64,000 nt of DNA from Parcubacteria group bacterium (GTDB lineage: Bacteria; Patescibacteriota; Minisyncoccia; Moranbacterales; UBA2206), in contig JBAYWF010000001.1 of NCBI GenBank assembly GCA_041674205.1, positions 149,003 to 213,002 on the forward strand. Reading direction: 5' to 3'. The notes beneath the pieces are model-generated. The model made no database searches and was not told where the DNA came from. It worked only from the letters and a program-made list of their open reading frames with translations. Positions 1,349 through 62,191 of the stretch are shown here, piece after piece. Numbering within the stretch: position 1 is the first letter of the stretch; every line of letters begins with the position of its first letter. The position numbers and the translations under genes were made by a program.

Positions 1349-1397
1349 TCCGCCGGGCAGCAAACCTGTTCCGGCGGATTTTTATTTTTTTTTCAAG
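1349..1397 (+). terminator. rho-independent terminator
   Basis: 7-bp GC stem ccgccgg...ccggcgg followed by a long T-tract (atttttattttttttt). Confidence 0.5.
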
Positions 1398-1478
1398 CAT
1401 TTTCCAGCCTTGATTTTTTTTGGTCCGGCTGATATGCTTGCCATAGTCTGAAGTTTAAAAAATATCCAAGGAGGCTAT

Positions 1479-1610
1479 GATCCGCGTATTGGGATGATTT
1501 TTTTTTGAAAGGGTCGCTTGGTCGCTTATGTTTGCGCGGGGAGTCGAATGGCGAAACCGGTTTAGGTTGGAAAGTTGCGAAACTTTCCGGTTCTGGCCGG
1601 TTTTTTATTT
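1479..1610 (+). promoter_or_regulatory. conserved structured leader element, copy A (box1 gatccgcg.at.gg.atgatttttt; 46-nt box2 ggtcgcttatgt.tgcgcggggag..gaatggcgaaaccggtttag; hairpin; T-tract)
   Basis: Near-identical copy at 7993-8128. Box2 is 43/46 identical. The following hairpin differs in sequence but keeps its pairing (ggaaagtt/aactttcc versus gaaaagttt/aaacttttc), i.e. compensatory change. Both copies end in ccggtttttt and both sit directly upstream of + strand operons. Confidence 0.45.
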
Positions 1611-1643: not shown

Positions 1644-3230
1644 ATGTATATACGATATCGAAAGGCGCAGACGGCCGGCAACGGTCCGCAAAATTCCTCT
1701 CCGGAGAGGATCGGTTTTGAAGAGGGCAAAAAGAAAAAACCCTTGAAAAAACCGATAAATTTCCGCGACTGCGCCTACTCCGGCGCCATCGGCAACGGTA
1801 TCCGTTACAAAGGGAATTATTTCGTGACTCACAGCGATCTGCCTCACCGGCATAGCGCCATCCAAACTTGCCAGCCTTACCAAAAAATCGTCCTATTGCT
1901 GATAGCTGGCCTGGTTTTGGCGGGAGCCCTGATGGATATCAAAAGCGCGCTGATCGTTGTGGTCGCCGTCTTGTCCGCTTTTTATTTTTTGGATCTGCTT
2001 TTTAATTTTTTTCTGATCATCAAAAGTTTCCAAAAATCGCGCGAGATAAAAATAACCGCCGCCGAGATAGGGGAGTTGGACGGCGAAAAACTTCCGGTGT
2101 ATACGATTTTTTGTCCGCTCTATAAAGAGTGGCAAGTCATCCCCCAATTCACCCGGGCCATTTCCAAAATCGATTGGCCGAAAGACAAATTGGATGTGCA
2201 GCTTCTTCTGGAAGAGGACGATCCCCAGACGATCGCGGAAGCGGAGAAGATGGATTTACCTGGTTATTTCCGGATTATCGTCGTACCGCATGGCCATCCG
2301 AAGACCAAGCCCAAAGCTTGCAATTACGGGCTGTGCCATGCCAAGGGGGAATATGCCGTTATTTTTGACGCGGAAGATATCCCTGATCCGGACCAATTGA
2401 AAAAAGCCTATCTGGCCTTCCGGAAACTCAAGGATGAAAAGGTCCTTTGCGTCCAAGCCAAACTTAATTTCTACAATGCCCGCCAAAATATCCTGACACG
2501 TTTTTTTTCGGCGGAATATGCCTTGTGGTTCAATCTGGTGCTGGTCGGGCTCCAATCGATCAAGTCGCCGATTCCGCTGGGCGGAACTTCCAACCATTTC
2601 CGCACGCGGGATCTGCAGCTGCTGAGCGGCTGGGATCCGTTCAACGTGACGGAGGATTGCGATTTGGGGATCCGGATCGCCAAATTGGGTTATCGCACCG
2701 AGATTTTCAATTCCAATACGATGGAAGAAGCGACCAGCAAAGTCGGCAATTGGATGCGCCAGCGTTCGCGCTGGATTAAAGGCTATATGCAGACGTATCT
2801 CGTGCATATGCGCCGGCCGTGTGAATTCGCGTCGGATCTCAGGAATCCGCAGGTTCTCACTTTCCAACTGGTAGTGGGCGGAAAAGTCCTTTCGATTTTC
2901 ATCAATCCGTTGATGTGGCTGCTGGTCATTTCCTATTTCTCTTTCCGCGCGACGATGGGCCCGCTCATCGAACCTTTGTATCCGAAGCCGGTTTTCTATA
3001 TTTCCATCTTCTCTTTGGTATTCGGGAATTTCCTGCAAGTCTATTATTATATGATCGGTTGCGCGAAGCGGGAACAGTGGGATATGATAAAATATGTTTT
3101 TCTGGTGCCGGTGTATTGGCTGATGATGAGCATCGCTTCCTGGAAGGCGCTGTGGCAATTGGTTTTCAAGCCCCACTATTGGGAAAAGACGGTGCACGGT
3201 TTCCATTTGGCAGTCAAAAAAAATGCGTAG
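1644..3230 (+). CDS. processive family-2 glycosyltransferase, cellulose/chitin/hyaluronan-synthase-like
   Basis: N-terminal TM segments, GT-A core (DAED, DCD-like motifs), the QRSRWIKG (QxxRW) motif of processive GT2 enzymes, and C-terminal TM helices. The exact start is uncertain and may lie downstream of 1644. Confidence 0.75.
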   Translation: MYIRYRKAQTAGNGPQNSSPERIGFEEGKKKKPLKKPINFRDCAYSGAIGNGIRYKGNYFVTHSDLPHRHSAIQTCQPYQKIVLLLIAGLVLAGALMDIKSALIVVVAVLSAFYFLDLLFNFFLIIKSFQKSREIKITAAEIGELDGEKLPVYTIFCPLYKEWQVIPQFTRAISKIDWPKDKLDVQLLLEEDDPQTIAEAEKMDLPGYFRIIVVPHGHPKTKPKACNYGLCHAKGEYAVIFDAEDIPDPDQLKKAYLAFRKLKDEKVLCVQAKLNFYNARQNILTRFFSAEYALWFNLVLVGLQSIKSPIPLGGTSNHFRTRDLQLLSGWDPFNVTEDCDLGIRIAKLGYRTEIFNSNTMEEATSKVGNWMRQRSRWIKGYMQTYLVHMRRPCEFASDLRNPQVLTFQLVVGGKVLSIFINPLMWLLVISYFSFRATMGPLIEPLYPKPVFYISIFSLVFGNFLQVYYYMIGCAKREQWDMIKYVFLVPVYWLMMSIASWKALWQLVFKPHYWEKTVHGFHLAVKKNA

Positions 3231-4509
3231 CGAAACGAACACAATCAAAGCTTTGTTCGCGGATGAATTTGCCAGAAGCAGCTCCATCTTCTTTTTCAGT
3301 TCCGCCGCCGCTGCTTTTTTGAATTATCTGTACCATCCTATCCTGGGCCGGCTGATGGATGTGGCGGATTTCGGCGAGGCGCAGGCGGCCATCTCGCTGT
3401 TTTTGCAATTCGGCGTCCTAGCGTCCGTCTTTTCTTTTTTCACTATCAGCCTGGCTTCCAATGCCGAGTCCGGCAAGTCAGGGGAAATGTCTTCCGTTAT
3501 CGCGGAGTTTCGGAAGCTTGCCGTGCTGGCGATTGCGGCGCTGGCCGTCGGTCTGGTTTTTTTCCATCAGGCAGTGAAGGAGTTTTTGAATTTTTCTTCT
3601 ATCTATCCGCTGCTGATCCTGATGTTGTTGTTATTGGCCAATGTGCTGTTCTCTTTCCGCCGGGCCTATCTGCAAGGAATGCGCAAAATCAAAAGCGTGT
3701 CCGCGGCGGATGTGATTTTTTCCGCTTCCCGCTTGTTTCTCGCAATCGCTTTCGTCTATGCCGGCTGGCGGTCGTCCGGAGCGGTCGCCGGTTTGCTGGC
3801 CGGACAGCTCATCGCTTTGGCCTATGTTTTTTCCAAAACCAAAGACGTCCTGGTTCCGGAAAATTGGAGCATCCTGCCGCGTTGGCGGCATCCCGCGTTC
3901 AGGCGGGAATTCAAATTCGGTTTGTTGGTGGCGGTAGCGGTTTTTTGCGTGACATTCTTTTACGCAAGCGATATCATTTTCGTGCGGCACTACTTTCCGG
4001 CGGAAGAAGCCGGTTTGTACGGCGGCATAGCGACGGTAGCCAGGATAATTTTTTTCGCTACCAGCCCGATAGTTATGGTGATGTTGCCGATGGTCAGGCT
4101 GAAAAATGTGCCGGAAAAAAACGCGGCGCTTTTCCGGAAAGCGTTCGCGGTAGTGGCCGTGCTCGGACTGGCCATAACGCTGGTCCTGCAGATTTTTCCA
4201 GAGTTCGTCATCAAGCTTTTGATTGGCGGGCGTTATGCCGTTTTCGCGCCGATTCTGCCGCGGCTGGGCTGGATGGTTTTTGCCGCCTCGCTGGCCAATC
4301 TGTTTTCCGCCTATTTCATCGCGCTTAGAAAATACACGCTGATCCCGATATCCCTCGCGTCCGTTTCGCTTACCGCGGTCCTGGCATTTTTTTTCCATAG
4401 CGATCCGATCCAGATAATAAACGATTTCATCTGCGGGCTGGCTCTTGTAATTTTTTTATCCTCCATAATATATGCGCAAAAAGATTTCTATCGTCATACC
4501 GGTCTATAA
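3223..4509 (+). CDS. polysaccharide biosynthesis membrane protein, Wzx/MOP-flippase-like
   Basis: 428-aa protein with about 12-14 predicted TM helices and Wzx-like architecture. Its start overlaps the upstream stop, which suggests operon coupling. Confidence 0.55.
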   Translation: MRSETNTIKALFADEFARSSSIFFFSSAAAAFLNYLYHPILGRLMDVADFGEAQAAISLFLQFGVLASVFSFFTISLASNAESGKSGEMSSVIAEFRKLAVLAIAALAVGLVFFHQAVKEFLNFSSIYPLLILMLLLLANVLFSFRRAYLQGMRKIKSVSAADVIFSASRLFLAIAFVYAGWRSSGAVAGLLAGQLIALAYVFSKTKDVLVPENWSILPRWRHPAFRREFKFGLLVAVAVFCVTFFYASDIIFVRHYFPAEEAGLYGGIATVARIIFFATSPIVMVMLPMVRLKNVPEKNAALFRKAFAVVAVLGLAITLVLQIFPEFVIKLLIGGRYAVFAPILPRLGWMVFAASLANLFSAYFIALRKYTLIPISLASVSLTAVLAFFFHSDPIQIINDFICGLALVIFLSSIIYAQKDFYRHTGL

Positions 4510-5410
4510 TGAAAAAGAAAACATCCGCCCGGTCTATGCCGGAGTGGAGGAGGTTATCCGGTCCGTCCCTGGCTACGAATTCGAAGTCATTTTCGTCAAT
4601 GACGGCAGTTCAGACGGGACTTGGAAGGAAATAATCAATCTGGCGGGGAGCGGAAAAGGGATCAAAGCTTTGAATTTCAGCCGCAATTTCGGGCATCAAG
4701 CCGCGATCGAAGCCGGGATGGCCAATGCCGGGGGAGCGGCGGTGATAACTATGGACGGGGATATGCAACATCCGCCGGAAATGATTCCCGAGCTGATCAG
4801 AAAATGGGAGCAAGGCTTTGAGATCGTGAATACCAAGCGGGAGGAAACCGAAGGTATCTCTTTTTTCAAAAAGATCGCTTCCGGCATTTTCTATCGCCTG
4901 CTAAACTGCATTTCCGAAGTGCATATCGAAAGCGGTTCGGCCGATTTCAGATTGATCGGCCGGCGGGCGATGGATGAATTGAACAAGCTGACGGAAAAAA
5001 ACAAATTCTACCGGGGTTTGATCAGCTGGATCGGATTTGAAAGCGCTATCGTGAAATATAAAGCGGGCAAGAGGCGGGGCGGAAAATCATCCTATACTTT
5101 CAACAAAATGCTGTCGCTGGCCAGGGTCGGCATAACCTCTTTCAGCATGCTTCCGATGAAAGTGATTTTTTTGTTCGGCGCGCTCCTTTTTTTCGGCGGA
5201 TTTTTGCTGACGGCCGGGATGGTTTTTTGGCGGTATTGCATCGGGTCGGCGCTGTTCAGCGGGACTGGGATATTGGCGGCTTTCATCATAATGAACAACG
5301 GTCTGTTTATGGTGATGCTCGGAATCGTTTCGATGTACCAGATCAATATGTGCAAGGAATTGCAGAACCGGCCGAACTACATCATCACTGAAAAAATAAA
5401 TCTCAACTAA
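4472..5410 (+). CDS. polyprenyl-phosphate glycosyltransferase (GtrB/ArnC/DPM1-like GT2)
   Basis: N-terminal GT2 core (IVIPVYNE, VIFVNDGSSDGT, DGDMQHPP) plus two C-terminal TM helices, as in GtrB/ArnC. Confidence 0.8.
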   Translation: MRKKISIVIPVYNEKENIRPVYAGVEEVIRSVPGYEFEVIFVNDGSSDGTWKEIINLAGSGKGIKALNFSRNFGHQAAIEAGMANAGGAAVITMDGDMQHPPEMIPELIRKWEQGFEIVNTKREETEGISFFKKIASGIFYRLLNCISEVHIESGSADFRLIGRRAMDELNKLTEKNKFYRGLISWIGFESAIVKYKAGKRRGGKSSYTFNKMLSLARVGITSFSMLPMKVIFLFGALLFFGGFLLTAGMVFWRYCIGSALFSGTGILAAFIIMNNGLFMVMLGIVSMYQINMCKELQNRPNYIITEKINLN

Positions 5411-5434
5411 CCATTAACCATCAAGATTAATATT

Positions 5435-6253
5435 ATGGATGAAAAAAAACCGGAAGTTTCCGTCCTGATGTCCGCGTACAATGAGGAAAAATATGTCAGC
5501 GCCGCCATCGAAAGCATCTTGGACCAGACCTATCGCGATTTCGAATTGATCGTCATCGATGATTGTAGCCGGGACGCGACTTGGAAGCTGATTGCCGGAT
5601 ATGCCGGGCGCGATCCGCGGGTGCGGGCGTCCAGGAATGAAAAAAATTTGGGGATTTCCAGCACGCTCAACAAGGGACTCGCGCTAGCCCGCGGGAAATA
5701 TATCGTCAAGATGGACGCGGACGATTGGTCCTACCCGGACCGTTTGGAAAAGCAAGTCAGGTTTATGGAAAAAAATCCCCAGGTCGCCATCAGCGGCGGT
5801 ACGATGGAAGTGTGTGATGAGGGGATGGTTGTCCTGAATAAGCGGCCGTACAACTTGACTGACCGGGAGATACGCCGGAAAATTTTCCTGTATAATCCGT
5901 TCTGCCATCCGGCGGTGATCTACCGGACGGACATCGCCAAAAGGGTCGGCGGCTATTGTTTGATCGATTCGGCCGGCGATTATGAATTGTATTTCAAGCT
6001 CGGATTGCACGGGGAGTTCGCTAATTTGCCGGATGTCCTGTTGAAATACCGGGTCAACCGCGGTTCCATTTCCGTCTATAAGGCGAGAAGCCAGGAGCGC
6101 GACACGCTGTATGTGCGGCTCAAGGCGGTTTTCGAATACGGCTACAGGATGCGTCCGGTCGATAAACTATATTTCGCCTGCCAGTTTTTGAGTATGTATC
6201 TCATCCCGCAACGGACCAAGGCCTGGATATTTAACCGGTTAAGAAGCAATTGA
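5435..6253 (+). CDS. family-2 glycosyltransferase
   Basis: VLMSAYNEEKYV, LIVIDDCSRD and KMDADD motifs identify a GT-A fold GT2. Confidence 0.8.
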   Translation: MDEKKPEVSVLMSAYNEEKYVSAAIESILDQTYRDFELIVIDDCSRDATWKLIAGYAGRDPRVRASRNEKNLGISSTLNKGLALARGKYIVKMDADDWSYPDRLEKQVRFMEKNPQVAISGGTMEVCDEGMVVLNKRPYNLTDREIRRKIFLYNPFCHPAVIYRTDIAKRVGGYCLIDSAGDYELYFKLGLHGEFANLPDVLLKYRVNRGSISVYKARSQERDTLYVRLKAVFEYGYRMRPVDKLYFACQFLSMYLIPQRTKAWIFNRLRSN

Positions 6254-7935
6254 TCACTATGGTCGGATTTTTTCAAAAAATCAGCGCGTCCTTCCGCAAA
6301 AACATATTGCCGGTCACTTTGGCCTTGGCGGTTTTTTTCAGTCTGGCCAGCTTCCTTTTTTTCTATTTGGACGGACAGCGGAACACCACCTATTTCGACG
6401 CGCAATCCCATCTCAATATGGCCCGCAAAATCGTGGACAATTTGAATCCCGGTTTGGGCCAGCTCGGCGGCTTGTGGCTGCCGCTTCTGCATCTTTTGAT
6501 GGTGCCGTTCATCTGGAATGATTTTATGTGGCATTCCGGTTGGGCGGGAGCTTGCGTTTCGATGCCGGCTTTCGTCCTGTCGGTCTATTTCGTTTTCAAG
6601 ACCGTCGAACTGCTTTTCCGCGATCGGACGGCGGCCTTTCTCGGCGCTTTGGTATATATGTCCAGTTTCAATATGCTTTTGCTCCAGAGTATGGCGATGA
6701 TGGAACCGCTATTCAATCTGACGATCATCGGCAGCATCTATTATCTTTCCCGCTGGGCCAGGACGGACAACTTGGTGGATCTGTCCGGCGGGGCTTTCTT
6801 TGTTTTTTTGAGCACGCTGACCCGCTATGAAGGCTACGCGGTTTTGGCGGCATCGGCCGCCGCCGTGCCCATCGTCACTTTCATAAAAAATTTCAACGCG
6901 TCTCATCGGTATCGGATCGTGGAAGGCAAATTCCTGATTTTTATGACGCTGGCGTCTTTCGGCGTCTTGCTGTGGCTGGCCTACTCGCTGGTGATTTTCG
7001 GCGATCCTTTGCATTGGACCCATCCTAATGCCGCGGATGTGGCAACGGTCGCTGAAACTGTCCGGAGCGGAAGCCCGTCCGAAATTATGCGCGGGGATCC
7101 TACGGATTATTACCGGCACGATTTGTCCAAGGCACTTCTGACATTTTGGTGGACCGCGGCCATCGGCAACGGTCTGGTGGTTTTTTTCGCGGGCATAGCG
7201 GGCTTCCTGTCGCTCTTGTGGTTTTGCGGGAGGAATATCCGCTATGCCTATCTGTTCATTCCGGCCGTGTTGGTTTCTGTCGCGTTTCCGCTGTTCATCC
7301 TGGTGCTGATGTATCTGGGCCAGGTTTCGCTCCTGCCGCCGTTCCTCGGTTTCGCCGGCATCTTCGACAAGGGGAATAATCTGGCTGACGAAGCCGGCAT
7401 CCGTTACACTCTCGCGATGCTGCCGCTCCTTGCGATTTTTATAGGCTGGCTGGCCGCGGGCGGAGCGTACCGTAAAATTACCGTTTTCCTGCTCATCGTT
7501 TTCCAAGTCGGCGCATTTTTTTCCGGACCGCTGTTCCTGACCTATGACCTTTCCTTGAAATGGGAAAGCGTGTACGGACAGGAAAACCGTTCGGTGGAAT
7601 GGTTCAAGGAAAATTATTCCGGCGGACTCATCCTGGCAAGCGCGTTGTCCCACGAGGCGGAAATTTTCCAGAACGGGCTGGCGTACAAGAACTATATCCA
7701 CGAGGGAACCGGCCATTATTGGGAAGAATCCTTGAAAAACCCGGTGCGTTACGCGACCTGGATAATTATGAACAAAAGCGCCAAGACGGACACGTCCGGC
7801 ATCTGGGGACAGGACATCCTGACCAACCGTTTCCGCAATTCAAAGGTCCTGCGGAACAATTTCGACTTGGTATATGATGACGGTAAAATTATGATTTACA
7901 AAATAAAAGCCAATAAGGAATTGCTCCATTTTTGA
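6250..7935 (+). CDS. GT-C fold membrane glycosyltransferase (ArnT/PMT/GT39-83-like), putative partner of the GtrB-like enzyme
   Basis: 561-aa polytopic protein with periplasmic loops. It sits in an operon with a polyprenyl-P-sugar synthase, matching the classical ArnC-ArnT / GtrB-GtrC logic. The family call is inference. Confidence 0.5.
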   Translation: MITMVGFFQKISASFRKNILPVTLALAVFFSLASFLFFYLDGQRNTTYFDAQSHLNMARKIVDNLNPGLGQLGGLWLPLLHLLMVPFIWNDFMWHSGWAGACVSMPAFVLSVYFVFKTVELLFRDRTAAFLGALVYMSSFNMLLLQSMAMMEPLFNLTIIGSIYYLSRWARTDNLVDLSGGAFFVFLSTLTRYEGYAVLAASAAAVPIVTFIKNFNASHRYRIVEGKFLIFMTLASFGVLLWLAYSLVIFGDPLHWTHPNAADVATVAETVRSGSPSEIMRGDPTDYYRHDLSKALLTFWWTAAIGNGLVVFFAGIAGFLSLLWFCGRNIRYAYLFIPAVLVSVAFPLFILVLMYLGQVSLLPPFLGFAGIFDKGNNLADEAGIRYTLAMLPLLAIFIGWLAAGGAYRKITVFLLIVFQVGAFFSGPLFLTYDLSLKWESVYGQENRSVEWFKENYSGGLILASALSHEAEIFQNGLAYKNYIHEGTGHYWEESLKNPVRYATWIIMNKSAKTDTSGIWGQDILTNRFRNSKVLRNNFDLVYDDGKIMIYKIKANKELLHF

Positions 7936-7992
7936 TTGCGTGGTATATTTATAACATACCAGGGAATCATAGAGCCATGTTTAAAATGTGAT

Positions 7993-8128
7993 GATCCGCG
8001 CATCGGAATGATTTTTTGGTGAGTATATATTGGTCGCTTATGTGTGCGCGGGGAGCTGAATGGCGAAACCGGTTTAGACCGAAAAGTTTTTTTAAACTTT
8101 TCAGTTTGAGCCGGTTTTTTGTTTTTTG
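7993..8128 (+). promoter_or_regulatory. conserved structured leader element, copy B
   Basis: Same box1, box2, hairpin and T-tract as 1479-1610. It lies about 135 nt upstream of the TasA-like operon. Confidence 0.45.
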
Positions 8129-8260: not shown

Positions 8261-9442
8261 ATGAAAAAAATGATCAAAAGCGGGCTCATCGTGCTTGCGG
8301 TCGCTGCGATTGCCGGGTATGGAACATACTCGTTCTTCAGCGACACAGAAACATCGACGGGAAACAATTTTACCGCAGGAGAAATCGACCTGACCGTAAC
8401 CCATACTGACAGCGCTACGGACGGCGCTTGTACGTTTGACAATACATCAGGCGGACCGATTTTTAATTGTACCGATGTAAAACCTGGGGACGCAGGTGAA
8501 AGCACGTTGACATTCAACCTTACAAGCAACCCTGCTTGGGCATGTATGTATGTGGATAATGTCGTTGATAGCGATAATGGATGCAATGATCCGGAATTGG
8601 CCGCTGAATCAGTTTGTGCGGTAGATGGAAATGGTGAATTGGACGACGCTTTGATGCTTACTGTTTGGGTTGACGATGGGGTTGGAGGTGGAATAGTATG
8701 CAATAATATCCGAGACGGATCGGAACAAATAATTATAGAAGATCAGTCATTGAGCTCTTTCGTGTTACCAACAGGAGGCTATGTCCTTCCTATTTCAGAC
8801 GCGAGTGCCGATTCTATGATGGCTGATCCAGTCCAACCGGGTGACCATTGTGTCGGTGTCGCGTGGAGTGTCGATCCAACGGCAGGAAACGAAGTGCAGA
8901 CGGATAAATTAGGCGGTGATCTGACCTTCTATGTTGAACAGGCAAGAAACAATGATGGATTCACATGCGCGGCACATTTCACGCCTGCGGAAGGAGTGCA
9001 AACATTGACTCTTGAAAATGAGATACAGAATCCGACAGGACCTTGGACACCGATTACCGGTGACGGGATACAAGGAACATTAGCTTGGCAAGGAGATGGA
9101 GATACATTTGATTACACTCTAGCTGCGCAAGGATTACCCGCTAATTCATCATACAGTTTGATTTATTATGCTGATCCTTACCCAGGTAATAATCCAGGTA
9201 AATTAATCGGAACACACATGACCGATGGAGGTGGCAACATCAATGCTGCTGGAAATCCAGATCTAGGAATGGATTTGCCAGATCCTGCAGATGCTAACTT
9301 CGGGACTGGTGCTAAGATTTGGTTGATTCCAAGCAGTGCATATGATGCTGCGAGCAGTAGTATCATTTCTTGGACACCAGATACTACTACCTGGTTGTTC
9401 GAAGGTAATGTTTACATCCATTACAACGATACGAATAACTAA
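8261..9442 (+). CDS. TasA/camelysin-like secreted protein with SipW-cognate signal peptide (paralog 1)
   Basis: The N-terminus AIAGYGTYSFFSDTETSTGNNFTAGEIDL resembles the B. subtilis TasA signal/cleavage region (TWAAFNDIKSKDATFASGTLDL). It shares internal motifs VKPGDAGE...AWACM and ADLTFYVEQARNN with paralog 2. Confidence 0.7.
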   Translation: MKKMIKSGLIVLAVAAIAGYGTYSFFSDTETSTGNNFTAGEIDLTVTHTDSATDGACTFDNTSGGPIFNCTDVKPGDAGESTLTFNLTSNPAWACMYVDNVVDSDNGCNDPELAAESVCAVDGNGELDDALMLTVWVDDGVGGGIVCNNIRDGSEQIIIEDQSLSSFVLPTGGYVLPISDASADSMMADPVQPGDHCVGVAWSVDPTAGNEVQTDKLGGDLTFYVEQARNNDGFTCAAHFTPAEGVQTLTLENEIQNPTGPWTPITGDGIQGTLAWQGDGDTFDYTLAAQGLPANSSYSLIYYADPYPGNNPGKLIGTHMTDGGGNINAAGNPDLGMDLPDPADANFGTGAKIWLIPSSAYDAASSSIISWTPDTTTWLFEGNVYIHYNDTNN

Positions 9443-9553
9443 ACAAGATGTAGTCTTTCACTTCCGCTCATTTTCAAAATGGGCGGGAGAATAAAGATCT
9501 AAGGATAATTAATTACTTGCATAAGTAAGTACCTAAGTAAGTATTAAAACAAT

Positions 9554-10897
9554 ATGGTGAAAATATTGAAAAGCCTTACAATCGTCATTGCCATCGCGGC
9601 CATCGCGGGGGGAGCATCCTATTCGTTTTTCTCCGACACGGAAACGTCGACTGGCAATATGTTCACGGCGGGGGTTATCAATTTAAAAATTGATAATTCA
9701 AGTTATGCCATAGATTCTGTTATTCCTGGGTTTGATGATCCGGTGGGAGATTTGGTTGCGAGTCCGCACAATACCTGGTCCTATGACAACCTCACCGATC
9801 AACTATTTTTCAATTTTGAAGATTTGAAACCGGGGGATATAGGGGAAGACACGATCGGTTTGCAAGTTTCCAGTAATGACGCTTGGGCGTGCATGAAGGT
9901 GGACATAACGGACACTCCTGAAAATGATTTGATAGATCCGGAAGCGGAAGCGGGGGACAAGACGGAAAAGAACGGGGAGCTTCAAGATGAGCTAAGTTTC
10001 GCTTTTTGGGCGGATGACGGGGACAATGTATATGAAGATGAGGAAGTCATGCTTGACGACGGCAATCCAGGCATATTTTTAGAAGGAAAAGCCGCGGATA
10101 TTTTCAAAAATAAATTTATTACGCTGGCTGATTCAACGACTGATGTGTGGCCTGGCGGCAATGGACATCCGATAATTGCAGGCGAAAATTATTATATTGC
10201 TAAGGTTTGGTGCTTTGGAGAATTGACCCCGGCACCTGTCTCATCCGGAGATGGAGATCCTCTCCATCGCGGAACCGGATTTTTATGTGATGGAGACTCA
10301 GTTTCCAGCGCGTCTCAAACGGATGGGATAAAAGCGGATGTGACGTTTTATTCGGAACAAGCCAGGAACAATCCGCAGTTCGTTTGTTATCAGCAGGAGT
10401 GTTCGGCTGATGCTGTCTATACGTCAGAGGTCGTAAGTAATATCCAAGGCACGCTTAATGACGGTAGTCCCGTCATTGATCCGGATCGGACTGACCCGGA
10501 TGAAGCCAATGGTCCGCCGGATTGGGTTAGCGGAACCGGTACGAACTTTTATAGTCTGGGTAAGGATGGGACGGTGACTTTGAAATTTGCCGATATGGTC
10601 GGCAATGGTAATGGAAATGACCTCGCTGTCTATGAAGTGACCAATGGGCGCGATTCATATCCGCTGGAAAGTGCGGATGTGGAAGTGAGTCTCAATGGAA
10701 AGACTTGGTATCCTGTCGGCGTAGCTACGAGTGAACCTGGTGGGGATGGCGTTTCATATTTTGACATATCTTCCACCCCTCTTTCAATGTTCAAATATGT
10801 AAGACTGGCTGATTCGACTGATTTCTCTTTGCACAACAGTATTTCCGACGGGTTTGACTTGGATGCGGTTGGCGCTATCTACGGGGAATGTGAATAA
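9554..10897 (+). CDS. TasA/camelysin-like secreted protein with SipW-cognate signal peptide (paralog 2)
   Basis: N-terminus AIAGGASYSFFSDTETSTGNMFTAGVINL, plus LKPGDIGEDTIGL...AWACMKVD and ADVTFYSEQARNN motifs. Confidence 0.7.
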   Translation: MVKILKSLTIVIAIAAIAGGASYSFFSDTETSTGNMFTAGVINLKIDNSSYAIDSVIPGFDDPVGDLVASPHNTWSYDNLTDQLFFNFEDLKPGDIGEDTIGLQVSSNDAWACMKVDITDTPENDLIDPEAEAGDKTEKNGELQDELSFAFWADDGDNVYEDEEVMLDDGNPGIFLEGKAADIFKNKFITLADSTTDVWPGGNGHPIIAGENYYIAKVWCFGELTPAPVSSGDGDPLHRGTGFLCDGDSVSSASQTDGIKADVTFYSEQARNNPQFVCYQQECSADAVYTSEVVSNIQGTLNDGSPVIDPDRTDPDEANGPPDWVSGTGTNFYSLGKDGTVTLKFADMVGNGNGNDLAVYEVTNGRDSYPLESADVEVSLNGKTWYPVGVATSEPGGDGVSYFDISSTPLSMFKYVRLADSTDFSLHNSISDGFDLDAVGAIYGECE

Positions 10898-10944
10898 TCA
10901 TTGCTAAATAGGTGTCCCATTGCGTGTTATAAAAATATATCTCA

Positions 10945-12027
10945 ATGAGTAAAATTCTAACAAGATTTTCTAGAAACCTGATTATAGCCATTTTTATTTT
11001 AGCTATGGGGGGATATGAGACGTATGCTTGTGTCGTGCAAGGCAAGGAGCCTTTTTGGCATAACTTTCCCGATAAGAAATTGGATTTGGAGATAAGTTAT
11101 GCCGGATATTATAATAAGGATGCCGACAACCATCCTAATGCGGGAAGCTGGCGGCAACAGGACCTGACTACGCAGAAATTTTTTGATTTCTATGATATCA
11201 AACCGGGCGATTTCGGTGAGGGCACAATCGGTTTGCGCCTCAAACACCAAGACGCTTGGGGTTGTGCTACCATCCGTCCGACCGAAAACGATGATAACGG
11301 CTCCACTGAACCGGAATTGCTCGAGGATGCGCAAAATGCGGCAGCTGATAAATGGGATGGCGAGTTGGCGAAAAAAATTAATTTTAAGATCTGGGCCGAT
11401 GTTTGTTCGAAAAGATATGTGAAAGCGGGCGATAACGTTTTTCAGCCTGATTGCGATCGGCTTATAACCAGCGGTACCGGTCCGTTGCAGGAGCTTAACT
11501 TGGTTTTGGCTGACGCTGAAAATCCGAATGTTTTCAATGGGAATATAGGACCGCTCAAAAAAAACAAAAACTATTATATAGGCGTAGATTGGAATATCGA
11601 TTCGGATGTCGGCAATATCATCCAAACTGATTCATATAAGGCAGACATAACTTTTTTTGTCCAGCAGTCGGACGGCAACCAGGACTTCCGTTGCGCGGAT
11701 ATCCGTAATGATGATCCGGATAAATGCGCGGATGGCGCCATACGCAATTGTTATTCAGGTGATTTCGATAAAATCGATATCGGCATCTGTCGAAGCGGGA
11801 CTGAAGCTTGCGTTCAAGGAAATTGGGGAAATTGTTCCGGAGAGATTTTACCTGACAAGGAAATCTGCAAAGACAATCTGGATAACGACTGTGACGGGCA
11901 AATCAATAAAGGATGCCCGCCGATATGCCAGCGCGTGAGTGATTGCGATGACCACAATTCAAAAACCGATGACAACTGCGTGAACAAAGAATGCGTGCAT
12001 GCGGAGAAAAAGAACTTAAAGCGGTAA
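10945..12027 (+). CDS. TasA-like paralog 3 with C-terminal Cys-rich MopE-like putative metal-binding domain
   Basis: Shares IKPGDFGEGTIGL...AWGCATI and ADITFFVQQSDGN with paralogs 1 and 2. It has a different hydrophobic N-terminus. The C-terminal ~110 aa carry about 16 Cys, including CKDNLDNDCDGQINKGC (a C-x-DG-x-DNDCDG signature). Confidence 0.6.
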   Translation: MSKILTRFSRNLIIAIFILAMGGYETYACVVQGKEPFWHNFPDKKLDLEISYAGYYNKDADNHPNAGSWRQQDLTTQKFFDFYDIKPGDFGEGTIGLRLKHQDAWGCATIRPTENDDNGSTEPELLEDAQNAAADKWDGELAKKINFKIWADVCSKRYVKAGDNVFQPDCDRLITSGTGPLQELNLVLADAENPNVFNGNIGPLKKNKNYYIGVDWNIDSDVGNIIQTDSYKADITFFVQQSDGNQDFRCADIRNDDPDKCADGAIRNCYSGDFDKIDIGICRSGTEACVQGNWGNCSGEILPDKEICKDNLDNDCDGQINKGCPPICQRVSDCDDHNSKTDDNCVNKECVHAEKKNLKR

Positions 12028-12050
12028 CACATAAGATAATATGAAAAGAT

Positions 12051-12707
12051 ATGCTAGATAAAATTTTTAAAATTTTAAAAAATCTCATTTGGACTGCAAT
12101 CGTCGCATTTCTGATTTTGATCGGCATAACATTCATTCCGATCAAAGGAAATTACAAGGTTTATACGGTACAATCAGGTTCGATGGAGCCAGCTATCCAT
12201 ACCGGCAGTTTGATTTTTGTCAAAAGCCAGGAGGATTACAACGTCGGTGACATTGTAACGCGGGCGACCAAAGATCCAAGAGTGACTGTCACGCATCGTA
12301 TCATTTCTAAAAAAACGGAAGGTAGTAAGGTAGTATTTGAAACCAAAGGAGATGCTAATGAGGATCCAGATAGGGAAAGCGTAAGCCAAGATAGGATTAT
12401 CGGCAAGGAATTTTTTCAGATACCGTATATCGGTTATCCAGTCGGATATGCTCGGACGATGCCAGGATTCATCATTCTTATAATTATCCCAGCTGTAATT
12501 ATCGTTTATGAAGAGATTAGGAAAATCAAAGAAGAAATCGTGAATATTTGGAAAAAGAAAAATGGGAAAGAAGATCTGCCTGCGGAAGATCATTTATTGG
12601 AAAAGAAATATGTTCGGGTGTCGAGAGAAGATAATATCTCAAATATAAGTTTTGAAACTAAGGAAAATCAGACTAAGAAAGAAAAAATCAGTCGGAAAAA
12701 AAGATAA
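12051..12707 (+). CDS. sipW: signal peptidase I, archaeal/eukaryotic type (SipW-like, S26B)
   Basis: N-terminal TM anchor, catalytic Ser motif VQSGSMEPAI, conserved His in VTHRIIS, and KGDANEDPD box. It has a Lys-rich C-terminal tail. Confidence 0.8.
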   Translation: MLDKIFKILKNLIWTAIVAFLILIGITFIPIKGNYKVYTVQSGSMEPAIHTGSLIFVKSQEDYNVGDIVTRATKDPRVTVTHRIISKKTEGSKVVFETKGDANEDPDRESVSQDRIIGKEFFQIPYIGYPVGYARTMPGFIILIIIPAVIIVYEEIRKIKEEIVNIWKKKNGKEDLPAEDHLLEKKYVRVSREDNISNISFETKENQTKKEKISRKKR

Positions 12708-14679: not shown

Positions 14680-15804
14680 CTAATCAGTCGGGTCGATCAG
14701 TTCCAGATTGCGCGTGTGCCAATTCAGGACGGCCGTTTTTTTGACCATCAACTTGAACATATCAGGATGTTCCTTTTGGATGACCTCGGAAGCATATTGG
14801 CTTAAAAATTGCGACTTCAATTCGGCTCGGGCTTTGTCCACGCCGATTTCCGAATAGGGGGCCGAAGTCAGAAGCAGGAAGCCGTCCTTGGGGATCATCC
14901 CGCGCTCCATATTTGATTTGATGATGCCGGCCGCGGTCTTGATCGGTCCGCTGATGTCGGGACTGTATGGTCCGATGATGAGCGCGATGTTGGGCACGTG
15001 CAAAAAGTCGAAACCGCGTCCGATGCAAATGATCCATTCGCGATGCACCGAATCCAGTTCCAAATTCCGGTGGGCGTTGCGGATGTCGGCGATGTGTTCG
15101 ATGTTGCCGGTGACCAGCGGCAACAAATCGCGCAACACTTGGTCGGGCATATCCGGATACATCGCGCGCAATTTGTTGGTCAGGAATTCTTTGGATGGGT
15201 CCGTGCTTTCAGCCAGATTGAAAATTTCTTTGTTTTCCCCGTCGTGGAGGATTATCGCGTCTTCGTCGGTTTCGATTCCGCAAATCAACGGATAGACAGC
15301 CTGGTGGTTTTGGCCGAAAATATATTCCGCTTGCTTTTTGACTTCGAAAACGTGCTTGACGGCGGCAGCGCAATCATATTGGAAGCCGGCGCATCCCCGG
15401 TGTCCGTCGCCTTTGGAATAGTGGTAGGTGATGATCATCAGGACCCGGCGGGAATCTTCGATGGCGGCATTGACCGTGTTATAGAGCACTTCGCCCAGAT
15501 ACGGCCAGCCCAAATCGAACATTCCGCCGATATTGCGGAAAGGCTTGATGATACCCAGGGGGGTCTTGGTCGCGTAGGGCAGGTGGATCCGGCCGTCCAT
15601 ACATTTTAAAGCGATTATCATCGTCGGATGTTTGGCGGAATATCTTTTGCGGGAAAGATAGGCATCGGAAGAACAGTAGGCATCGGAATGTTTTTTGCTC
15701 AAATCCAAGAGCCAGTCGATCCGTTCCTGGATCGGCATATGGTAGATATCCGCTTCGCGGGCATCGATGTATTTATTGATTTCCTTCATATAGGTGGATT
15801 GCAA
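14680..15804 (-). CDS. hypothetical protein with beta-carbonic-anhydrase-like zinc-ligand motifs
   Basis: LKCMDGRIH (C68-x-D70-x-R72) and HRGCAG (H135-x-x-C138) match the beta-CA signature CxDxR...HxxC with similar spacing (67 versus about 60 residues). A 170-aa C-terminal extension is unassigned. Confidence 0.45.
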   Translation of the reverse strand: MQSTYMKEINKYIDAREADIYHMPIQERIDWLLDLSKKHSDAYCSSDAYLSRKRYSAKHPTMIIALKCMDGRIHLPYATKTPLGIIKPFRNIGGMFDLGWPYLGEVLYNTVNAAIEDSRRVLMIITYHYSKGDGHRGCAGFQYDCAAAVKHVFEVKKQAEYIFGQNHQAVYPLICGIETDEDAIILHDGENKEIFNLAESTDPSKEFLTNKLRAMYPDMPDQVLRDLLPLVTGNIEHIADIRNAHRNLELDSVHREWIICIGRGFDFLHVPNIALIIGPYSPDISGPIKTAAGIIKSNMERGMIPKDGFLLLTSAPYSEIGVDKARAELKSQFLSQYASEVIQKEHPDMFKLMVKKTAVLNWHTRNLELIDPTD

Positions 15805-18588: not shown

Positions 18589-20877
18589 ATGCCTAAACAT
18601 AAAAAAAACCAGCAACGGGGCGGAGCCGATCGGCAAGCCGCAAACGCATCGGGATCCTTGCGTTTTTTTCCCGGATCTCAGATTGAAAAAACGGTCAAAC
18701 TGCTGCTTTGGTTGCTTCCGTTCGTTCCCCTGGCCAGCTGGAAATATTTTTTCTTTCCGTATATTTCAATCAAACTTTTCATAGTCTATATCCTGAGCGA
18801 GGCGGTCTTCGGTTTGTATCTGATTTTGTGTTTTTCGGATAGGAGTTATCTGCCGGATTTCCATTGCAAAGATGGGCAGGGCGGAAAAAGTAAAAATTGG
18901 ATTTTGATCAGTCTGGCGTCCTATATGGCGGTTTTGGTCCTGACTACCTTTTTTTCCGTGGACATTTCCAAAAGCTTTTTCGGCAGTATCAGTTCTATGA
19001 ACGGACTGCTGACCGTGCTGCATTTTTTCCTGCTGTTCGTGGTTTTTTCCCGGGCATTCATCGATCGGAAATTCTGGATTATTTTCTTTCGCGCCAATAT
19101 GCTCGTCGGAATTTTTATCTCCGTTTGCGCGCTGTTCCAAAAGATGGGCGGTTCGGCATCGCCGATGGTGACCTTTGGAAATCCGGCCTATCTTTCCGGT
19201 TATCTTGTTTTGATCATCTTCCAGGCGATGGCTTTGTTCTGGTGGGATAACCGGAATAATTGGAAAATAGCGCATCTGATCGCCGGAATCATCAGTATGT
19301 CGGTGGTATTCTTAGCTGTCGATATCCGCGGTTCGCAACTAGGTGTCGCAACCGGCTTGCTCGCGGCGGTTTTGCTATACGGCTTGGCGAATGAAAAAGA
19401 AATAATCAGGAAGGTTTTCCGCTGGACATTCCTGGCCGGATTGGTGATGGCGGTGGCGATTTCCTTTTATGCGATAAGTTCAGGCAAGATTTATTCTTTT
19501 TTTGGGCGGTCATATACCGTTAAAACCCGTCTGGTAGCTTGGGAATCAGGACTGCGCGGATTCGGCGACAAATTTTTGACCGGCTACGGCTTGGAAAATT
19601 ATACGGTGCCGTTTGAAAAATATTTCCAGCCGACCTATTACAACCAAGGCAGGGGCAGTGCCACGGAATTCGGTGCGGATTCCCCGCATAATAAGGTTAT
19701 CGAGGTGGCGGTTTCTAATGGGATTTTCGGCGTAGCGGCTTATTTAGGGATATTCGCGGCTGTTTTCCATCTGATTTATGCGCGATATCTGGTTTCGCGC
19801 CGGAAAATTTTTCTGGGCCTGGCCGGACTTTTCAGCGCTTATTTCGTGCATCTGCTCTTTATTTTTGATACGGTGTCCGCTTCCTTGCTATTTTTCCCAT
19901 CCCTGGCCTTTTTGATTTTCGTATCGTGCGGGGACGGGATCGGTTCGGCGGGAAAAGAAAAACAGACCGGACTGTCTTTCGGCAAAATGGCTTCTGTCGC
20001 TGGAGCCGTCGCGATAATTTTCTGTGTCGCGGCTTTCTATTTCGTCTGGAAACCGGCCAAGGCGGTCCGGTATGCCAACATTGCCATAAACTCAGCCAAG
20101 GCTGGAAAATATGCTGAAGCTGCGGATGGATTGGACAGCCTGCGTCGGGAAAATGTCTATGCGGTGGAAGAAAGCGCTATTTTGGAAATCGGCAAAATAA
20201 CCCAGATCAATTTTTTCAACAAAACCGATTTCACCGGGGATGACAAAAAATATTTTGAAAAAATAATCGGACTGGCGGAATATAATCTGCGGCGCAATCC
20301 GGACAATCTGCATTATTACATCGAATTGGCTTCGTTGTATGACCGGGCCGGCCGCTATGACCAGAGCTATTACGGGAAAAATATCGAGCTTTTGGAAAAG
20401 GACCTGCAAAAAGGCACTAAAAGGGTGGAGGCCTATATGATGTTGGCCGATGCTTATGGCGCGACCGGCAACCGGGCCAGGGCGGAAGAATTGGGCCGGG
20501 CCGGAGTGGCGCTGGATCCGACCTACGGCTACGGCTATTTCTTGCTGGGCAATATTTATTTTTACAGGCTGGATGACGCGGGCAAGGCCGATGAGAATTT
20601 CGAAAAAGCTTTCGAATACGGATATAAAAACGTGAATTCTTTGAAATCCTACGCGGATGTGAACGTGAAGACCGGCAACCTGCCTAAAGCTATTTTCGCT
20701 TTTGAAGAACTCATCAAGCTCAATCCAAAAGATCCGCAACAGTATGCCAATCTGGCCATGCTCTATCTGAGCAACAAAGACTACCAAAAGGCGCGGGATA
20801 TGGCGGAGAAAACCAAGCGGAAATTTCCCGGCACCCAGGCCCAGATCGACGCATTCCTAAAAATAATTCCCAAATAA
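18589..20877 (+). CDS. O-antigen ligase/polymerase-like (Wzy_C) membrane protein fused to C-terminal TPR repeats
   Basis: About 10 TM helices with Wzy_C-like periplasmic loop region, then about 250 aa of TPR-like repeats (YYIELASLY..., AYMMLADAY..., YANLAMLYL...). Confidence 0.6.
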   Translation: MPKHKKNQQRGGADRQAANASGSLRFFPGSQIEKTVKLLLWLLPFVPLASWKYFFFPYISIKLFIVYILSEAVFGLYLILCFSDRSYLPDFHCKDGQGGKSKNWILISLASYMAVLVLTTFFSVDISKSFFGSISSMNGLLTVLHFFLLFVVFSRAFIDRKFWIIFFRANMLVGIFISVCALFQKMGGSASPMVTFGNPAYLSGYLVLIIFQAMALFWWDNRNNWKIAHLIAGIISMSVVFLAVDIRGSQLGVATGLLAAVLLYGLANEKEIIRKVFRWTFLAGLVMAVAISFYAISSGKIYSFFGRSYTVKTRLVAWESGLRGFGDKFLTGYGLENYTVPFEKYFQPTYYNQGRGSATEFGADSPHNKVIEVAVSNGIFGVAAYLGIFAAVFHLIYARYLVSRRKIFLGLAGLFSAYFVHLLFIFDTVSASLLFFPSLAFLIFVSCGDGIGSAGKEKQTGLSFGKMASVAGAVAIIFCVAAFYFVWKPAKAVRYANIAINSAKAGKYAEAADGLDSLRRENVYAVEESAILEIGKITQINFFNKTDFTGDDKKYFEKIIGLAEYNLRRNPDNLHYYIELASLYDRAGRYDQSYYGKNIELLEKDLQKGTKRVEAYMMLADAYGATGNRARAEELGRAGVALDPTYGYGYFLLGNIYFYRLDDAGKADENFEKAFEYGYKNVNSLKSYADVNVKTGNLPKAIFAFEELIKLNPKDPQQYANLAMLYLSNKDYQKARDMAEKTKRKFPGTQAQIDAFLKIIPK

Positions 20878-61348: not shown

Positions 61349-62191
61349 ATGCAAAATAAAAATACCCTTGCGATTTTTGAAGGACATAAAATCCGTCGGC
61401 AATATGATGAAAAAACGGAAACTTGGTATTTTTCAGTGATTGATATTGTGGCCGCACTATTAGATCAAGCTGATTACAACAGAGCAAAGAGTTATTGGAC
61501 AACCTTAAAAAATCGCTTGAAAGAGGAGGGAAGTGAAGTGGTCACAAGATGTGACCAGTTGAAAATGTTAGCTCAAGATGGAAAAATGCGAGAAACTGAT
61601 GTGGCTAATCCAGAAACGATATTACGTCTCATCCAATCCGTGCCAAGCAAAAAAGCGGAGCCAATCAAATTGTGGCTAGCTAAAGTCGGATATGAGCGGA
61701 TGCAAGAAATCGCCGATCCGGAAAGGGGTCTGAATCGTGCGCGGGAGAATTGGCAAAAACTCGGCCGAAGCAATGAATGGATCCAGCAACGTATGATGGG
61801 GCAAGAAATCCGAAACAAACTGACGGATTACTGGAGTGATAATGAGGTGAAAAAGGGAGAAGAGTTTGCCATTCTGACTAATATCATCCACGAAGAATGG
61901 ACGGACTTGTCGGTCAAAGAGCACAAAAATTTGAAAGGTCTGAAAGCGCAAAATTTGCGCGATCATATGACGGATGCGGAACTGGTTTTCACCGCCCTAG
62001 CGGAACTATCCACTAAACAAATCGCGGAAAGTTTGGAAGCGAAAGGCTTGATAGAAAACAAAGTCGCCGGCCGGAAAGGCGGCCGGGTTGCAAAAAACGC
62101 GCGGGTTGAGTTGGAAAAGAAAACCGGCCGGAAAATCGTGTCAGGCAGAAATTTTCTGGACGCAAAGTCGCAAAAGAGGCTGGGGAAATAA
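61349..62191 (+). CDS. DinD-like (DNA-damage-inducible protein D) protein with N-terminal Bro-N/KilA-N-like domain
   Basis: N-terminal LAIFEGHKIRRQYDEKTETWYFSVIDIVAAL matches the Bro-N pattern. The C-terminal region parallels E. coli DinD (FAILTNIIHEEW..., LKGLKAQNLRDHMTDAELVFTA..., KKTGRKIVSGRNFL). Confidence 0.6.
   Translation: MQNKNTLAIFEGHKIRRQYDEKTETWYFSVIDIVAALLDQADYNRAKSYWTTLKNRLKEEGSEVVTRCDQLKMLAQDGKMRETDVANPETILRLIQSVPSKKAEPIKLWLAKVGYERMQEIADPERGLNRARENWQKLGRSNEWIQQRMMGQEIRNKLTDYWSDNEVKKGEEFAILTNIIHEEWTDLSVKEHKNLKGLKAQNLRDHMTDAELVFTALAELSTKQIAESLEAKGLIENKVAGRKGGRVAKNARVELEKKTGRKIVSGRNFLDAKSQKRLGK

What the first reader, a model, noticed from the sequence alone, without database searches (positions are those of the whole stretch)
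1479..1610. Duplicated ~135-nt structured leader element with compensatory base changes
Two copies (1479-1610 and 7993-8128) share a 22-nt box1 (gatccgcg.at.gg.atgatttttt) and a 46-nt box2 (ggtcgcttatgt.tgcgcggggag..gaatggcgaaaccggtttag, 43/46 identical). Box2 contains the palindrome aaaccggttt. Each copy is followed by a hairpin whose sequence differs but whose pairing is preserved (ggaaagtt-gcgaaa-aactttcc versus gaaaagttt-ttttaaa-aaacttttc), and then by ccggtttttt. Covariation of this kind in a stem is the signature of a selected RNA structure. The terminal stem-plus-U-tract looks like an intrinsic terminator or attenuator, so this is a candidate riboswitch-like or protein-controlled attenuation leader, or alternatively a small RNA gene. 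I could not assign it to any RNA family I know. It is not GEMM-like: the hairpin loop is not conserved.
Basis: seen in the sequence. Interest (0 to 1): 0.75.

Follow-up and report, generated by a model that had tools for sequence, protein, structure and literature searches.

The report
Two c-di-GMP-II-type riboswitches, Moranbacteria
The two repeated leaders are divergent copies of a known RNA switch, the class II cyclic-di-GMP riboswitch; each carries a terminator and sits in front of biofilm-matrix genes in a Candidate Phyla Radiation bacterium, so this is a real but ordinary kind of element in an unusual host.

Summary
Two 81%-identical leaders lie on the + strand, at about 1464-1609 and 7979-8127.

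They are not an unknown RNA. Both match the Rfam c-di-GMP-II clan end to end. The best model is RF03169 (31.6 and 34.9 bits), which is below its gathering score of 40. A covariance model I built only from bona fide family members in other phyla finds exactly these two sites in the 64 kb window (35.9 and 44.5 bits, E about 1e-8 to 1e-10).

All core features are present: P1, P2, P3, the UGA/GGAG junction, the GGUCGC-to-GCGA..CC pseudoknot and two bulged adenines. Across 105 relatives the helices covary strongly.

Three related Patescibacteria loci carry the same element before the same genes, with compensatory changes.

Each aptamer's 3' strands form the 5' arm of a long intrinsic terminator. 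Ligand binding should therefore prevent termination (an ON switch).

Copy 1 controls an exopolysaccharide operon. Copy 2 controls a tasA/sipW-like operon.

The ligand is inferred to be c-di-GMP and was not shown. The tail reads GAA, between the canonical GCA and the orphan GAG variant.

Verdict: new member of a known kind, of modest interest.

The parts
1410..1438 (+). Possible promoter of leader 1: TTGATT (1410-1415), 17-nt spacer, TATGCT (1433-1438)
   Evidence: Read from the sequence. It is below the scanner's threshold. The related leader in L168 has TTGATT-17-TATAAT at the same relative place. Inferred only.
1464..1568 (+). Aptamer 1. P1 1464-1471/1561-1568. P2 1473-1475/1543-1545. J2/3 UAUGAU 1476-1481. 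P3 1482-1488/1533-1539. The P3 loop has a 31-nt A/U-rich insertion. Pseudoknot strand GGUCGC 1520-1525 (duplicated at 1512-1517) pairs with 1551-1554 and 1557-1558. Bulged A1555 and A1556.
   Evidence: RF03169 31.6 bits, E 2.9e-4, full model. Own model R1 35.9 bits, E 2.8e-8. Helix table.
1553..1609 (+). Terminator 1: long imperfect hairpin 1553-1604 (tip GGAAAGUU-GCGA-AACUUUCC 1569-1588) followed by UUUUUUAUU. Its 5' arm reuses the pseudoknot 3' strand and all of the P1 3' strand.
   Evidence: ViennaRNA -25.2 kcal/mol. Enforcing the aptamer helices removes the lower stem.
1644..7935 (+). Operon after leader 1: membrane GT2 (cellulose/PNAG-synthase-like), Polysacc_synt flippase, two GT2 enzymes, and a 561-aa protein with no family match
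   Evidence: Pfam, NCBIfam
7979..8079 (+). Aptamer 2. P1 7979-7985/8073-8079. P2 7987-7989/8055-8057 (one U-U mismatch). J2/3 GAUGAU 7990-7995. P3 7996-8002/8045-8051. 29-nt insertion in the P3 loop. Pseudoknot GGUCGC 8032-8037 pairs with 8063-8066 and 8069-8070. Bulged A8067 and A8068.
   Evidence: RF03169 34.9 bits, E 3.8e-5. R1 44.5 bits, E 8e-11. Helix table.
8065..8127 (+). Terminator 2: hairpin 8065-8118 (tip GAAAAGUUU-UUUU-AAACUUUUC 8081-8102) followed by a U-rich tract
   Evidence: ViennaRNA -29.9 kcal/mol. Full leader z-score -4.9. Constraint fold.
8261..12707 (+). Operon after leader 2: two proteins with SipW-dependent-type signal peptides (TasA/camelysin-like), a 360-aa protein with no family match, and a SipW-type signal peptidase I
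   Evidence: Pfam PF12389. TIGR04088 above its cut-off for both proteins, and TIGR02228 at 120.5 bits against a cut-off of 51.85.

Best explanation
Each copy is a transcriptional ON riboswitch of the class II cyclic-di-GMP fold (Rfam clan CL00127).

Proposed mechanism:
- The nascent leader folds into P1-P2-P3, with a pseudoknot between the P3 loop (GGUCGC) and the 3' tail (GCGA-AA-CC).
- When the ligand, most likely c-di-GMP, is bound, the pseudoknot and P1 hold the stretch GCGAAACCGG+UUUAG(G/A)... in the aptamer.
- Without ligand, that same stretch becomes the 5' arm of a 50-nt terminator hairpin followed by a U tract, and transcription stops before the genes.
- High ligand therefore turns on an exopolysaccharide operon (copy 1) and a tasA/sipW-like matrix-fibre operon (copy 2).

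Shown here: family-level homology, the helices and their covariation, the overlap of aptamer and terminator, the gene contexts, and conservation in related genomes.

Inferred only: the ligand, the direction of regulation in vivo, and the promoter.
For: Homology:
- Full-length alignments of both copies to RF03169, with all invariant core residues.
- Model R1 was built from 32 sequences of Actinomycetota, Chloroflexota and Gemmatimonadota, without the window. It finds only these two sites in 64 kb, at E 8e-11 and 2.8e-8.
- Pattern hits from the same genome scan are accepted by Rfam as RF03169 or RF01786. Six of the 32 seed loci had already been confirmed, and more.

Structure:
- Over 105 relatives, 85% of cells are paired against 35-45% when partners are slid.
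- The covariation score is 0.684 against about 0.1.
- 18 of 19 pairs show double changes.

Close relatives:
- L104 (Moraniibacteriota MAG) has the element before the orthologous GT2. P0001 is a 525-aa protein on a 196,461-nt contig and is 94% identical to the window's GT2. That length and contig size match L104's GT2 and its contig, so it is most probably the same protein.
- L122 has the element before SipW-type proteins.
- L168 has it before a 75%-identical GT2, with three C-G to U-A swaps in P3 and a terminator tip of unrelated sequence.

Expression platform:
- Terminator hairpins of -25.2 and -29.9 kcal/mol start inside the conserved tail, at G1553 and G8065.
- Enforcing the aptamer leaves only the tip hairpin, separated from the U tract.

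Context: EPS genes and TasA/SipW genes are classic c-di-GMP-activated functions (established knowledge).

Ligand: the two bulged adenines match the canonical c-di-GMP-II consensus. Relatives with the same GGUCGC/GCGAAACC pseudoknot pass the curated canonical RF01786 threshold: L041 69.5 bits, L107 67.7, L098 54.1, L102 53.6.
Against: - Both copies fall below every Rfam gathering score. So do L104 and L122 (no hit).
- P1 of copy 1 has two mismatches, and P2 of copy 2 has a U-U.
- The pseudoknot was fixed by my search pattern, so its covariation could not be tested within the data set. It shows only in the difference between the two Rfam consensus lines.
- No GGDEF, EAL or HD-GYP protein was seen among the 40 window ORFs scanned, or by motif search. 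Whether this organism makes c-di-GMP is therefore unknown.
- The best-scoring Rfam model is the GAG variant. From my memory of Weinberg et al. 2017 PNAS (not held in the library), its ligand was never validated.
- Six other Patescibacteria loci with homologous GT2 genes lack the element.
- In copy 1, a small alternative hairpin CCGGUUCUGGCCGG plus a U tract could still terminate in the bound state.
Confidence: 0.8

Rival explanations
1. Same fold and same antitermination mechanism, but the ligand is a different signalling nucleotide (another cyclic dinucleotide, a linear dinucleotide, or an unknown molecule), as was suspected for the orphan c-di-GMP-II-GAG/GCG variants.
For: - RF03169 (the GAG variant) is the best-scoring model for both copies.
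- The pseudoknot pair next to the bulge is U-A as in the GAG consensus, not G-C as in the canonical one.
- No c-di-GMP enzymes were seen in the window.
Against: - The position that distinguishes the GAG consensus from the canonical one in the unpaired bulge is A here, as in the canonical model.
- Sequences with the identical tail and pseudoknot pass the canonical RF01786 threshold.
- The regulated genes are typical c-di-GMP targets.
Confidence: 0.12
2. A protein- or sRNA-dependent attenuator, or a stand-alone small RNA ending at the terminator, whose resemblance to the riboswitch is superficial.
For: - Sub-threshold Rfam scores.
- The conserved A/U-rich 'box1' insertion (GGRAUGAUUUUU) in the P3 loop has no counterpart in the family consensus.
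Against: - Every conserved core residue and helix of the family is present in the right order.
- Box1 is not conserved in L168 and only partly in L104.
- Insertions of 20-50 nt at this spot are common in the family; matches range from 83 to 135 nt.
- The element always lies directly upstream of, and on the same strand as, the genes.
Confidence: 0.04
3. A decayed, non-functional remnant of a riboswitch that was duplicated along with promoter DNA.
For: Mismatches in P1 of copy 1 and P2 of copy 2. Scores are lower than those of most relatives.
Against: - Both copies are kept at orthologous sites in other genomes, with compensatory changes and intact terminators.
- The invariant core is untouched, while flanking DNA has diverged.
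Confidence: 0.04

Closest known systems
c-di-GMP-II riboswitch (Rfam RF01786; Lee et al. 2010; crystal structure 3Q3Z, Smith et al. 2011)
   Same: - P1-P2-P3 order.
- UGA/GGAG junction.
- Pseudoknot between the P3 loop and the 3' tail.
- Two bulged adenines in the tail (..AACC).
- Ligand-bound ON logic; PMC7583470 (read) states that ligand-bound c-di-GMP-II turns expression ON.
- Relatives with the window's exact tail and pseudoknot pass this family's threshold.
   Different: - Two pseudoknot pairs are swapped relative to the consensus: G-C to U-A and A-U to G-C, i.e. loop GGGCAC/tail GUGC becomes GGUCGC/GCGA.
- A roughly 30-nt A/U-rich insertion in the P3 loop.
- A score below the gathering threshold.
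- The host is a Patescibacteria lineage rather than Firmicutes.
c-di-GMP-II-GAG variant (Rfam RF03169; Weinberg et al. 2017 PNAS, cited from memory)
   Same: It is the best-scoring Rfam model. It has the same GGUCGC/GGCGA pseudoknot sequence and the same GGGGAG junction.
   Different: - The tail reads GAA, not GAG (G1553 A1554 A1555; G8065 A8066 A8067).
- Scores of 31.6 and 34.9 are below the threshold of 40.
- Most members found here are in high-GC Actinomycetota and Chloroflexota.
Bacillus subtilis tapA-sipW-tasA biofilm operon
   Same: The downstream genes are of the same kinds: proteins with SipW-dependent signal peptides plus a SipW-type signal peptidase.
   Different: In B. subtilis the operon is controlled by protein repressors (SinR/AbrB; established knowledge). 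Here it is preceded by a riboswitch-terminator leader.

Membership tests
c-di-GMP-II clan (Rfam CL00127) | Three nested helices P1, P2 and P3 in the family's order and spacing | tested here: met
   Full-length model alignments. Explicit pairs are listed. Family-wide covariation is 85% paired against about 40% when slid.
c-di-GMP-II clan (Rfam CL00127) | Conserved junction residues: UGA between P2 and P3, and GGAG after P3. These form the kink-turn (that assignment is from my memory of the 3Q3Z paper). | tested here: met
   AUGAUCC...GGGGAG is present in both copies and in L104, L122 and L168.
c-di-GMP-II clan (Rfam CL00127) | Pseudoknot between the P3 loop and the 3' tail, with two bulged purines | tested here: met
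   GGUCGC pairs with GCGA and CC, bulging AA, in both copies (read). The two Rfam consensus lines differ here by two compensatory swaps. Covariation within my data set was not testable, because the search pattern fixed these bases.
c-di-GMP-II clan (Rfam CL00127) | Score at or above a curated Rfam gathering threshold | tested here: not met
   There are no gathering-level hits in the window. RF03169 scores 31.6 and 34.9 against a threshold of 40. L104 and L122 are also missed.
c-di-GMP-II clan (Rfam CL00127) | Cis-regulatory position with an expression platform that competes with the aptamer | tested here: met
   The terminator's 5' arm overlaps the pseudoknot and P1 3' strands. The genes lie downstream on the same strand.
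c-di-GMP-II clan (Rfam CL00127) | Selective binding of c-di-GMP | not testable with these tools
   This needs in-line probing, ITC or transcription assays.
c-di-GMP-II-GAG variant (RF03169), strict sense | GAG in the 3' tail where the canonical class has GCA. I inferred this meaning of the name from the two consensus lines, not from the original paper. | tested here: not met
   Both copies read GAA (1553-1555, 8065-8067). Of 125 pattern hits, 74 are GAA and 51 are GAG.
Canonical c-di-GMP-II (RF01786), strict sense | Loop GGGCAC paired to tail GUGC..CC, with bulged AA | tested here: inconclusive
   The bulged AA is kept, but two pairs are swapped to GGUCGC/GCGA. Relatives with this same swap pass the RF01786 threshold (L041, L107, L098, L102). 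The window copies' own RF01786 scores are hidden by the clan filter and are lower than 31.6 and 34.9.
c-di-GMP-I / GEMM (RF01051) | Any match to the class I model | tested here: not met
   It is not listed among the matches up to E = 10 for either leader.

The most novel reading that the evidence does not exclude
The Patescibacteria branch (GAA tail, A/U-rich insertion in the P3 loop) may have a changed or broadened specificity. Alternatively it may sit in an organism without its own diguanylate cyclases, so that an ultrasmall, possibly host-attached bacterium switches on its matrix genes in response to a nucleotide signal that is not self-made c-di-GMP.
Probability: 0.1. Interest if true: 0.7.

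Novelty: new member of a known kind. Interest (0 to 1): 0.3.

Why it matters
It gives two unannotated leaders a specific, testable function. It also suggests that a Moranbacteria-like member of the Candidate Phyla Radiation controls both an exopolysaccharide operon and a TasA/SipW-type fibre operon with the same second-messenger switch. That is a hint of biofilm-like or attachment behaviour in a group with almost no known regulation.

The work also shows two practical points. First, Rfam's thresholds systematically miss this lineage's version because of the loop insertion. Second, a large 'GAA' group of sequences straddles the canonical and GAG Rfam families. That is useful for anyone trying to settle what the orphan GAG variant binds.

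Tried and rejected
1. A 16-base pattern scan of viral contigs gave 39 hits. All were chance matches in coding DNA, mostly collagen-like repeats.
2. A metagenome scan with the Patescibacteria-type tail gave 4 hits. The one I read (L160) lies inside what looks like a cobalamin adenosyltransferase gene. All four score only 20-23 bits over a 58-nt span with R1.
3. I looked for the original description of the GAG/GCG variants and for the 3Q3Z structure paper. Neither is held in the library. The meaning of 'GAG' and the ligand contacts therefore rest on the Rfam consensus lines and on my memory.
4. Literature searches for c-di-GMP or riboswitches in Patescibacteria found nothing relevant. One search on residue numbers was wasted.
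5. I searched for c-di-GMP enzymes by motif and with Pfam on 40 window ORFs and on the related loci. None were found.
6. I tested whether the small secreted proteins downstream of actinobacterial members are SipW-type. NCBIfam gave no hits, so no cross-phylum link can be claimed.
7. I looked for a conserved structure in the P3-loop insertion ('box1'). There are only weak, non-homologous A/U hairpins (0 to -5 kcal/mol), and L168 has a different sequence. I treat it as a variable insertion.
8. The minus strand folds less well and has no family match.

Full report
**1. Observation**

Reading the two regions and aligning them confirms two + strand copies with 81% identity over about 200 nt. The two conserved boxes are there, with box2 43/46 identical. 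So are the AAACCGGTTT palindrome, a downstream hairpin and CCGGTTTTTT. The 24-nt core of box2 occurs exactly twice in the window, against none in 100 shuffles.

Between the two copies that tip shows one genuine compensatory change (G1570-C1587 versus A8082-U8101). This is too little to prove selection on its own.

**2. Identity**

At Rfam's curated thresholds nothing in the window matches. With permissive thresholds, both copies align end to end with RF03169, the c-di-GMP-II-GAG aptamer:
- Copy 1: 1461-1571, 31.6 bits, E 2.9e-4.
- Copy 2: 7975-8083, 34.9 bits, E 3.8e-5.
- The gathering score is 40.

The other two models of clan CL00127 also hit at lower scores. The alignments show that the shortfall comes from a roughly 25-30 nt insertion in the P3 loop and an A/U-rich, imperfect P1.

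To test this independently I scanned one genome per species for GGTCGC...GGGAG...TGGCGARACCG. The scan returned at least 120 loci (it was capped), mostly Actinomycetota and Chloroflexota, plus two Candidatus Moraniibacteriota MAGs. Rfam accepts these at its own thresholds. In two samples of 18 loci, nearly all passed as RF03169 (44-67 bits) and four as canonical RF01786 (L041 69.5, L107 67.7, L098 54.1, L102 53.6).

A covariance model built from 32 short-loop members, without any window sequence, finds exactly two sites in the 64-kb window. They are the two copies, at 44.5 and 35.9 bits (E 8e-11 and 2.8e-8).

**3. Structure support**

I counted pairs on the 105 matches aligned to that model.
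- 85% of cells form standard pairs, against 35-45% when partners are slid by 1-3 columns.
- The covariation score is 0.684, against about 0.1 slid and 0.21 shuffled.
- 18 of 19 pairs show changes on both sides.

The alignment was fitted to the model, which favours the structure somewhat, but the margin is large.

The pseudoknot could not be tested this way, because my pattern fixed its bases. However, the two Rfam consensus lines printed differ there by two compensatory swaps. The canonical form has loop GGGCAC with tail GUGC-AA-CC. The GAG family has loop GGUCGC with tail GCGA-GA-CC.

**4. The window's version**

Both copies have loop GGUCGC and tail GCGA-AA-CC. They share the swapped pairs of the GAG family but keep the two bulged adenines of the canonical class ('GAA').

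This intermediate type is common: 74 of 125 pattern hits are GAA and 51 are GAG. Rfam assigns GAA-type sequences to either family.

I read 'GAG' as the three tail bases that replace the canonical GCA. This is my inference from the consensus lines, because the original paper is not in the library.

**5. Close relatives**

- The window comes from a 322-kb ENA metagenome contig.
- L104 (Moraniibacteriota MAG) has the element upstream of the orthologous GT2 gene. P0001 is 94% identical to the window's GT2, and its 525-aa length and 196,461-nt contig match L104. L104 also has the same ABC-3 permease upstream.
- L122 (another Moraniibacteriota MAG) has the element upstream of proteins with SipW-type signal peptides, as in copy 2.
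- Contigs carrying a 75%-identical GT2 (L168, L169, L170) have a third version with a clear TTGATT-17-TATAAT promoter.
- In these five sequences P3 changes from CCGCGCA/UGCGCGG to CUGUGUG/UACACAG, with three C-G to U-A swaps. P2 varies as GGC/GUC, GAC/GUC, AGC/GCU and GAU/GUC. The base of P1 changes to G-C.
- The terminator keeps its architecture while its tip changes completely (AAAACC-UUUGU-GGUUUU in L168).
- Six other loci with homologous GT2 genes lack the element, so the link is lineage-specific.
- L104 and L122 gave no gathering-level Rfam hit. The whole Patescibacteria branch is therefore invisible to standard annotation.

**6. Mechanism**

The unconstrained minimum-energy folds contain P3 plus a long hairpin at 1553-1604 (-25.2 kcal/mol) or 8065-8118 (-29.9 kcal/mol), followed by a U tract.

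The 5' arm of that hairpin begins at G1553 or G8065. That is inside the conserved tail, and it runs through the whole P1 3' strand. The pseudoknot and P1 on one side, and the terminator on the other, are therefore mutually exclusive.

When the aptamer helices are enforced and the pseudoknot strands are kept free, only the tip hairpin survives. It is separated from the U tract by unpaired bases. The secondary-structure energy is then 19-27 kcal/mol less favourable than the terminator fold. That gap would have to be bridged by the pseudoknot, tertiary contacts, the ligand and co-transcriptional timing.

This is the usual design of an ON riboswitch. It agrees with the statement in a review that ligand-bound c-di-GMP-II switches expression on (PMC7583470).

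One caveat: in copy 1 only, a short alternative hairpin CCGGUUCUGGCCGG plus a U tract could still terminate.

**7. Genes controlled**

- Leader 1 precedes a membrane GT2 resembling cellulose/PNAG synthases, a flippase, two more GT2 enzymes and a protein with no family match.
- Leader 2 precedes two proteins with SipW-dependent-type signal peptides (camelysin/TasA-like), a protein with no family match, and a SipW-type signal peptidase (TIGR02228, 120.5 bits against a cut-off of 51.85).
- More polysaccharide genes follow, including a priming transferase at 20877-22265 and several GT4 enzymes.
- Exopolysaccharide and matrix fibres are classic outputs of high c-di-GMP (established knowledge).

**8. 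What remains open**

The ligand was not tested. No diguanylate cyclase or phosphodiesterase was found among the 40 ORFs scanned or by motif search, but the window is only a fifth of its contig. The best Rfam model is a variant whose ligand, as far as I recall, was never validated. The canonical bulged adenines and the RF01786-passing relatives argue for c-di-GMP. I put about 0.65-0.7 on that ligand, and 0.8 on the fold and antitermination mechanism.

**9. Verdict**

This is a real, selected, cis-regulatory RNA. It is a divergent member of a known riboswitch class, found in an unusual host and in front of an interesting pair of operons. It is not a new kind of RNA.

Noticed in passing
window 1512-1527: Copy 1 carries a tandem duplication, GGTCGCTT GGTCGCTT. 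This gives it two alternative pseudoknot strands. Copy 2 and the relatives have only one.
   Followed up: partly
window 8261-12707: A tasA/sipW-like operon in a Patescibacteria genome: two proteins with SipW-dependent signal peptides, a 360-aa protein with no family match, and a SipW-type signal peptidase.
   Followed up: partly
L157 664-778 and 799-920; L075 3154, 5066 and 7108; L098 3643 and 5489; L064 1075 and 4698: Actinobacterial and Chloroflexota genomes carry several members close together. One case is a true tandem pair of aptamers about 20 nt apart (L157). Another has three riboswitches within 4 kb, each apparently before a secreted protein by my rough ORF calls (L075).
   Followed up: no
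L040, L046, L048, L060, L069 and other Frankiales/Mycobacteriales loci: GAG-type members share a conserved insertion in the P3 loop (cACCGAC-hairpin-GCACGGAGACAA). They often appear to precede small secreted peptides and an Lrp/AsnC-like regulator. This looks like a distinct subfamily and may be the real 'orphan' group.
   Followed up: no
L044, L073, L076, L093 and L045, downstream of the riboswitch: About 160-aa secreted proteins with a shared AYW(T/S)T.GSGTGS motif right after the signal peptide follow GAA-type riboswitches in Actinomycetota. None has an NCBIfam match.
   Followed up: partly
window 1350-1392: A GC-rich hairpin CCGCCGG...CCGGCGG plus a long T run probably terminates the upstream gene. 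Leader 1 therefore seems to have its own promoter. No such terminator separates the EPS operon from leader 2.
   Followed up: no
window 14680-15804 (-) and 61349-62191 (+): A weak hit to the catalytic domain of carboxysome-shell carbonic anhydrase (CsoSCA), and a Bro-N domain protein. A Bro-N gene also sits next to the GT2 homologue in L171.
   Followed up: no
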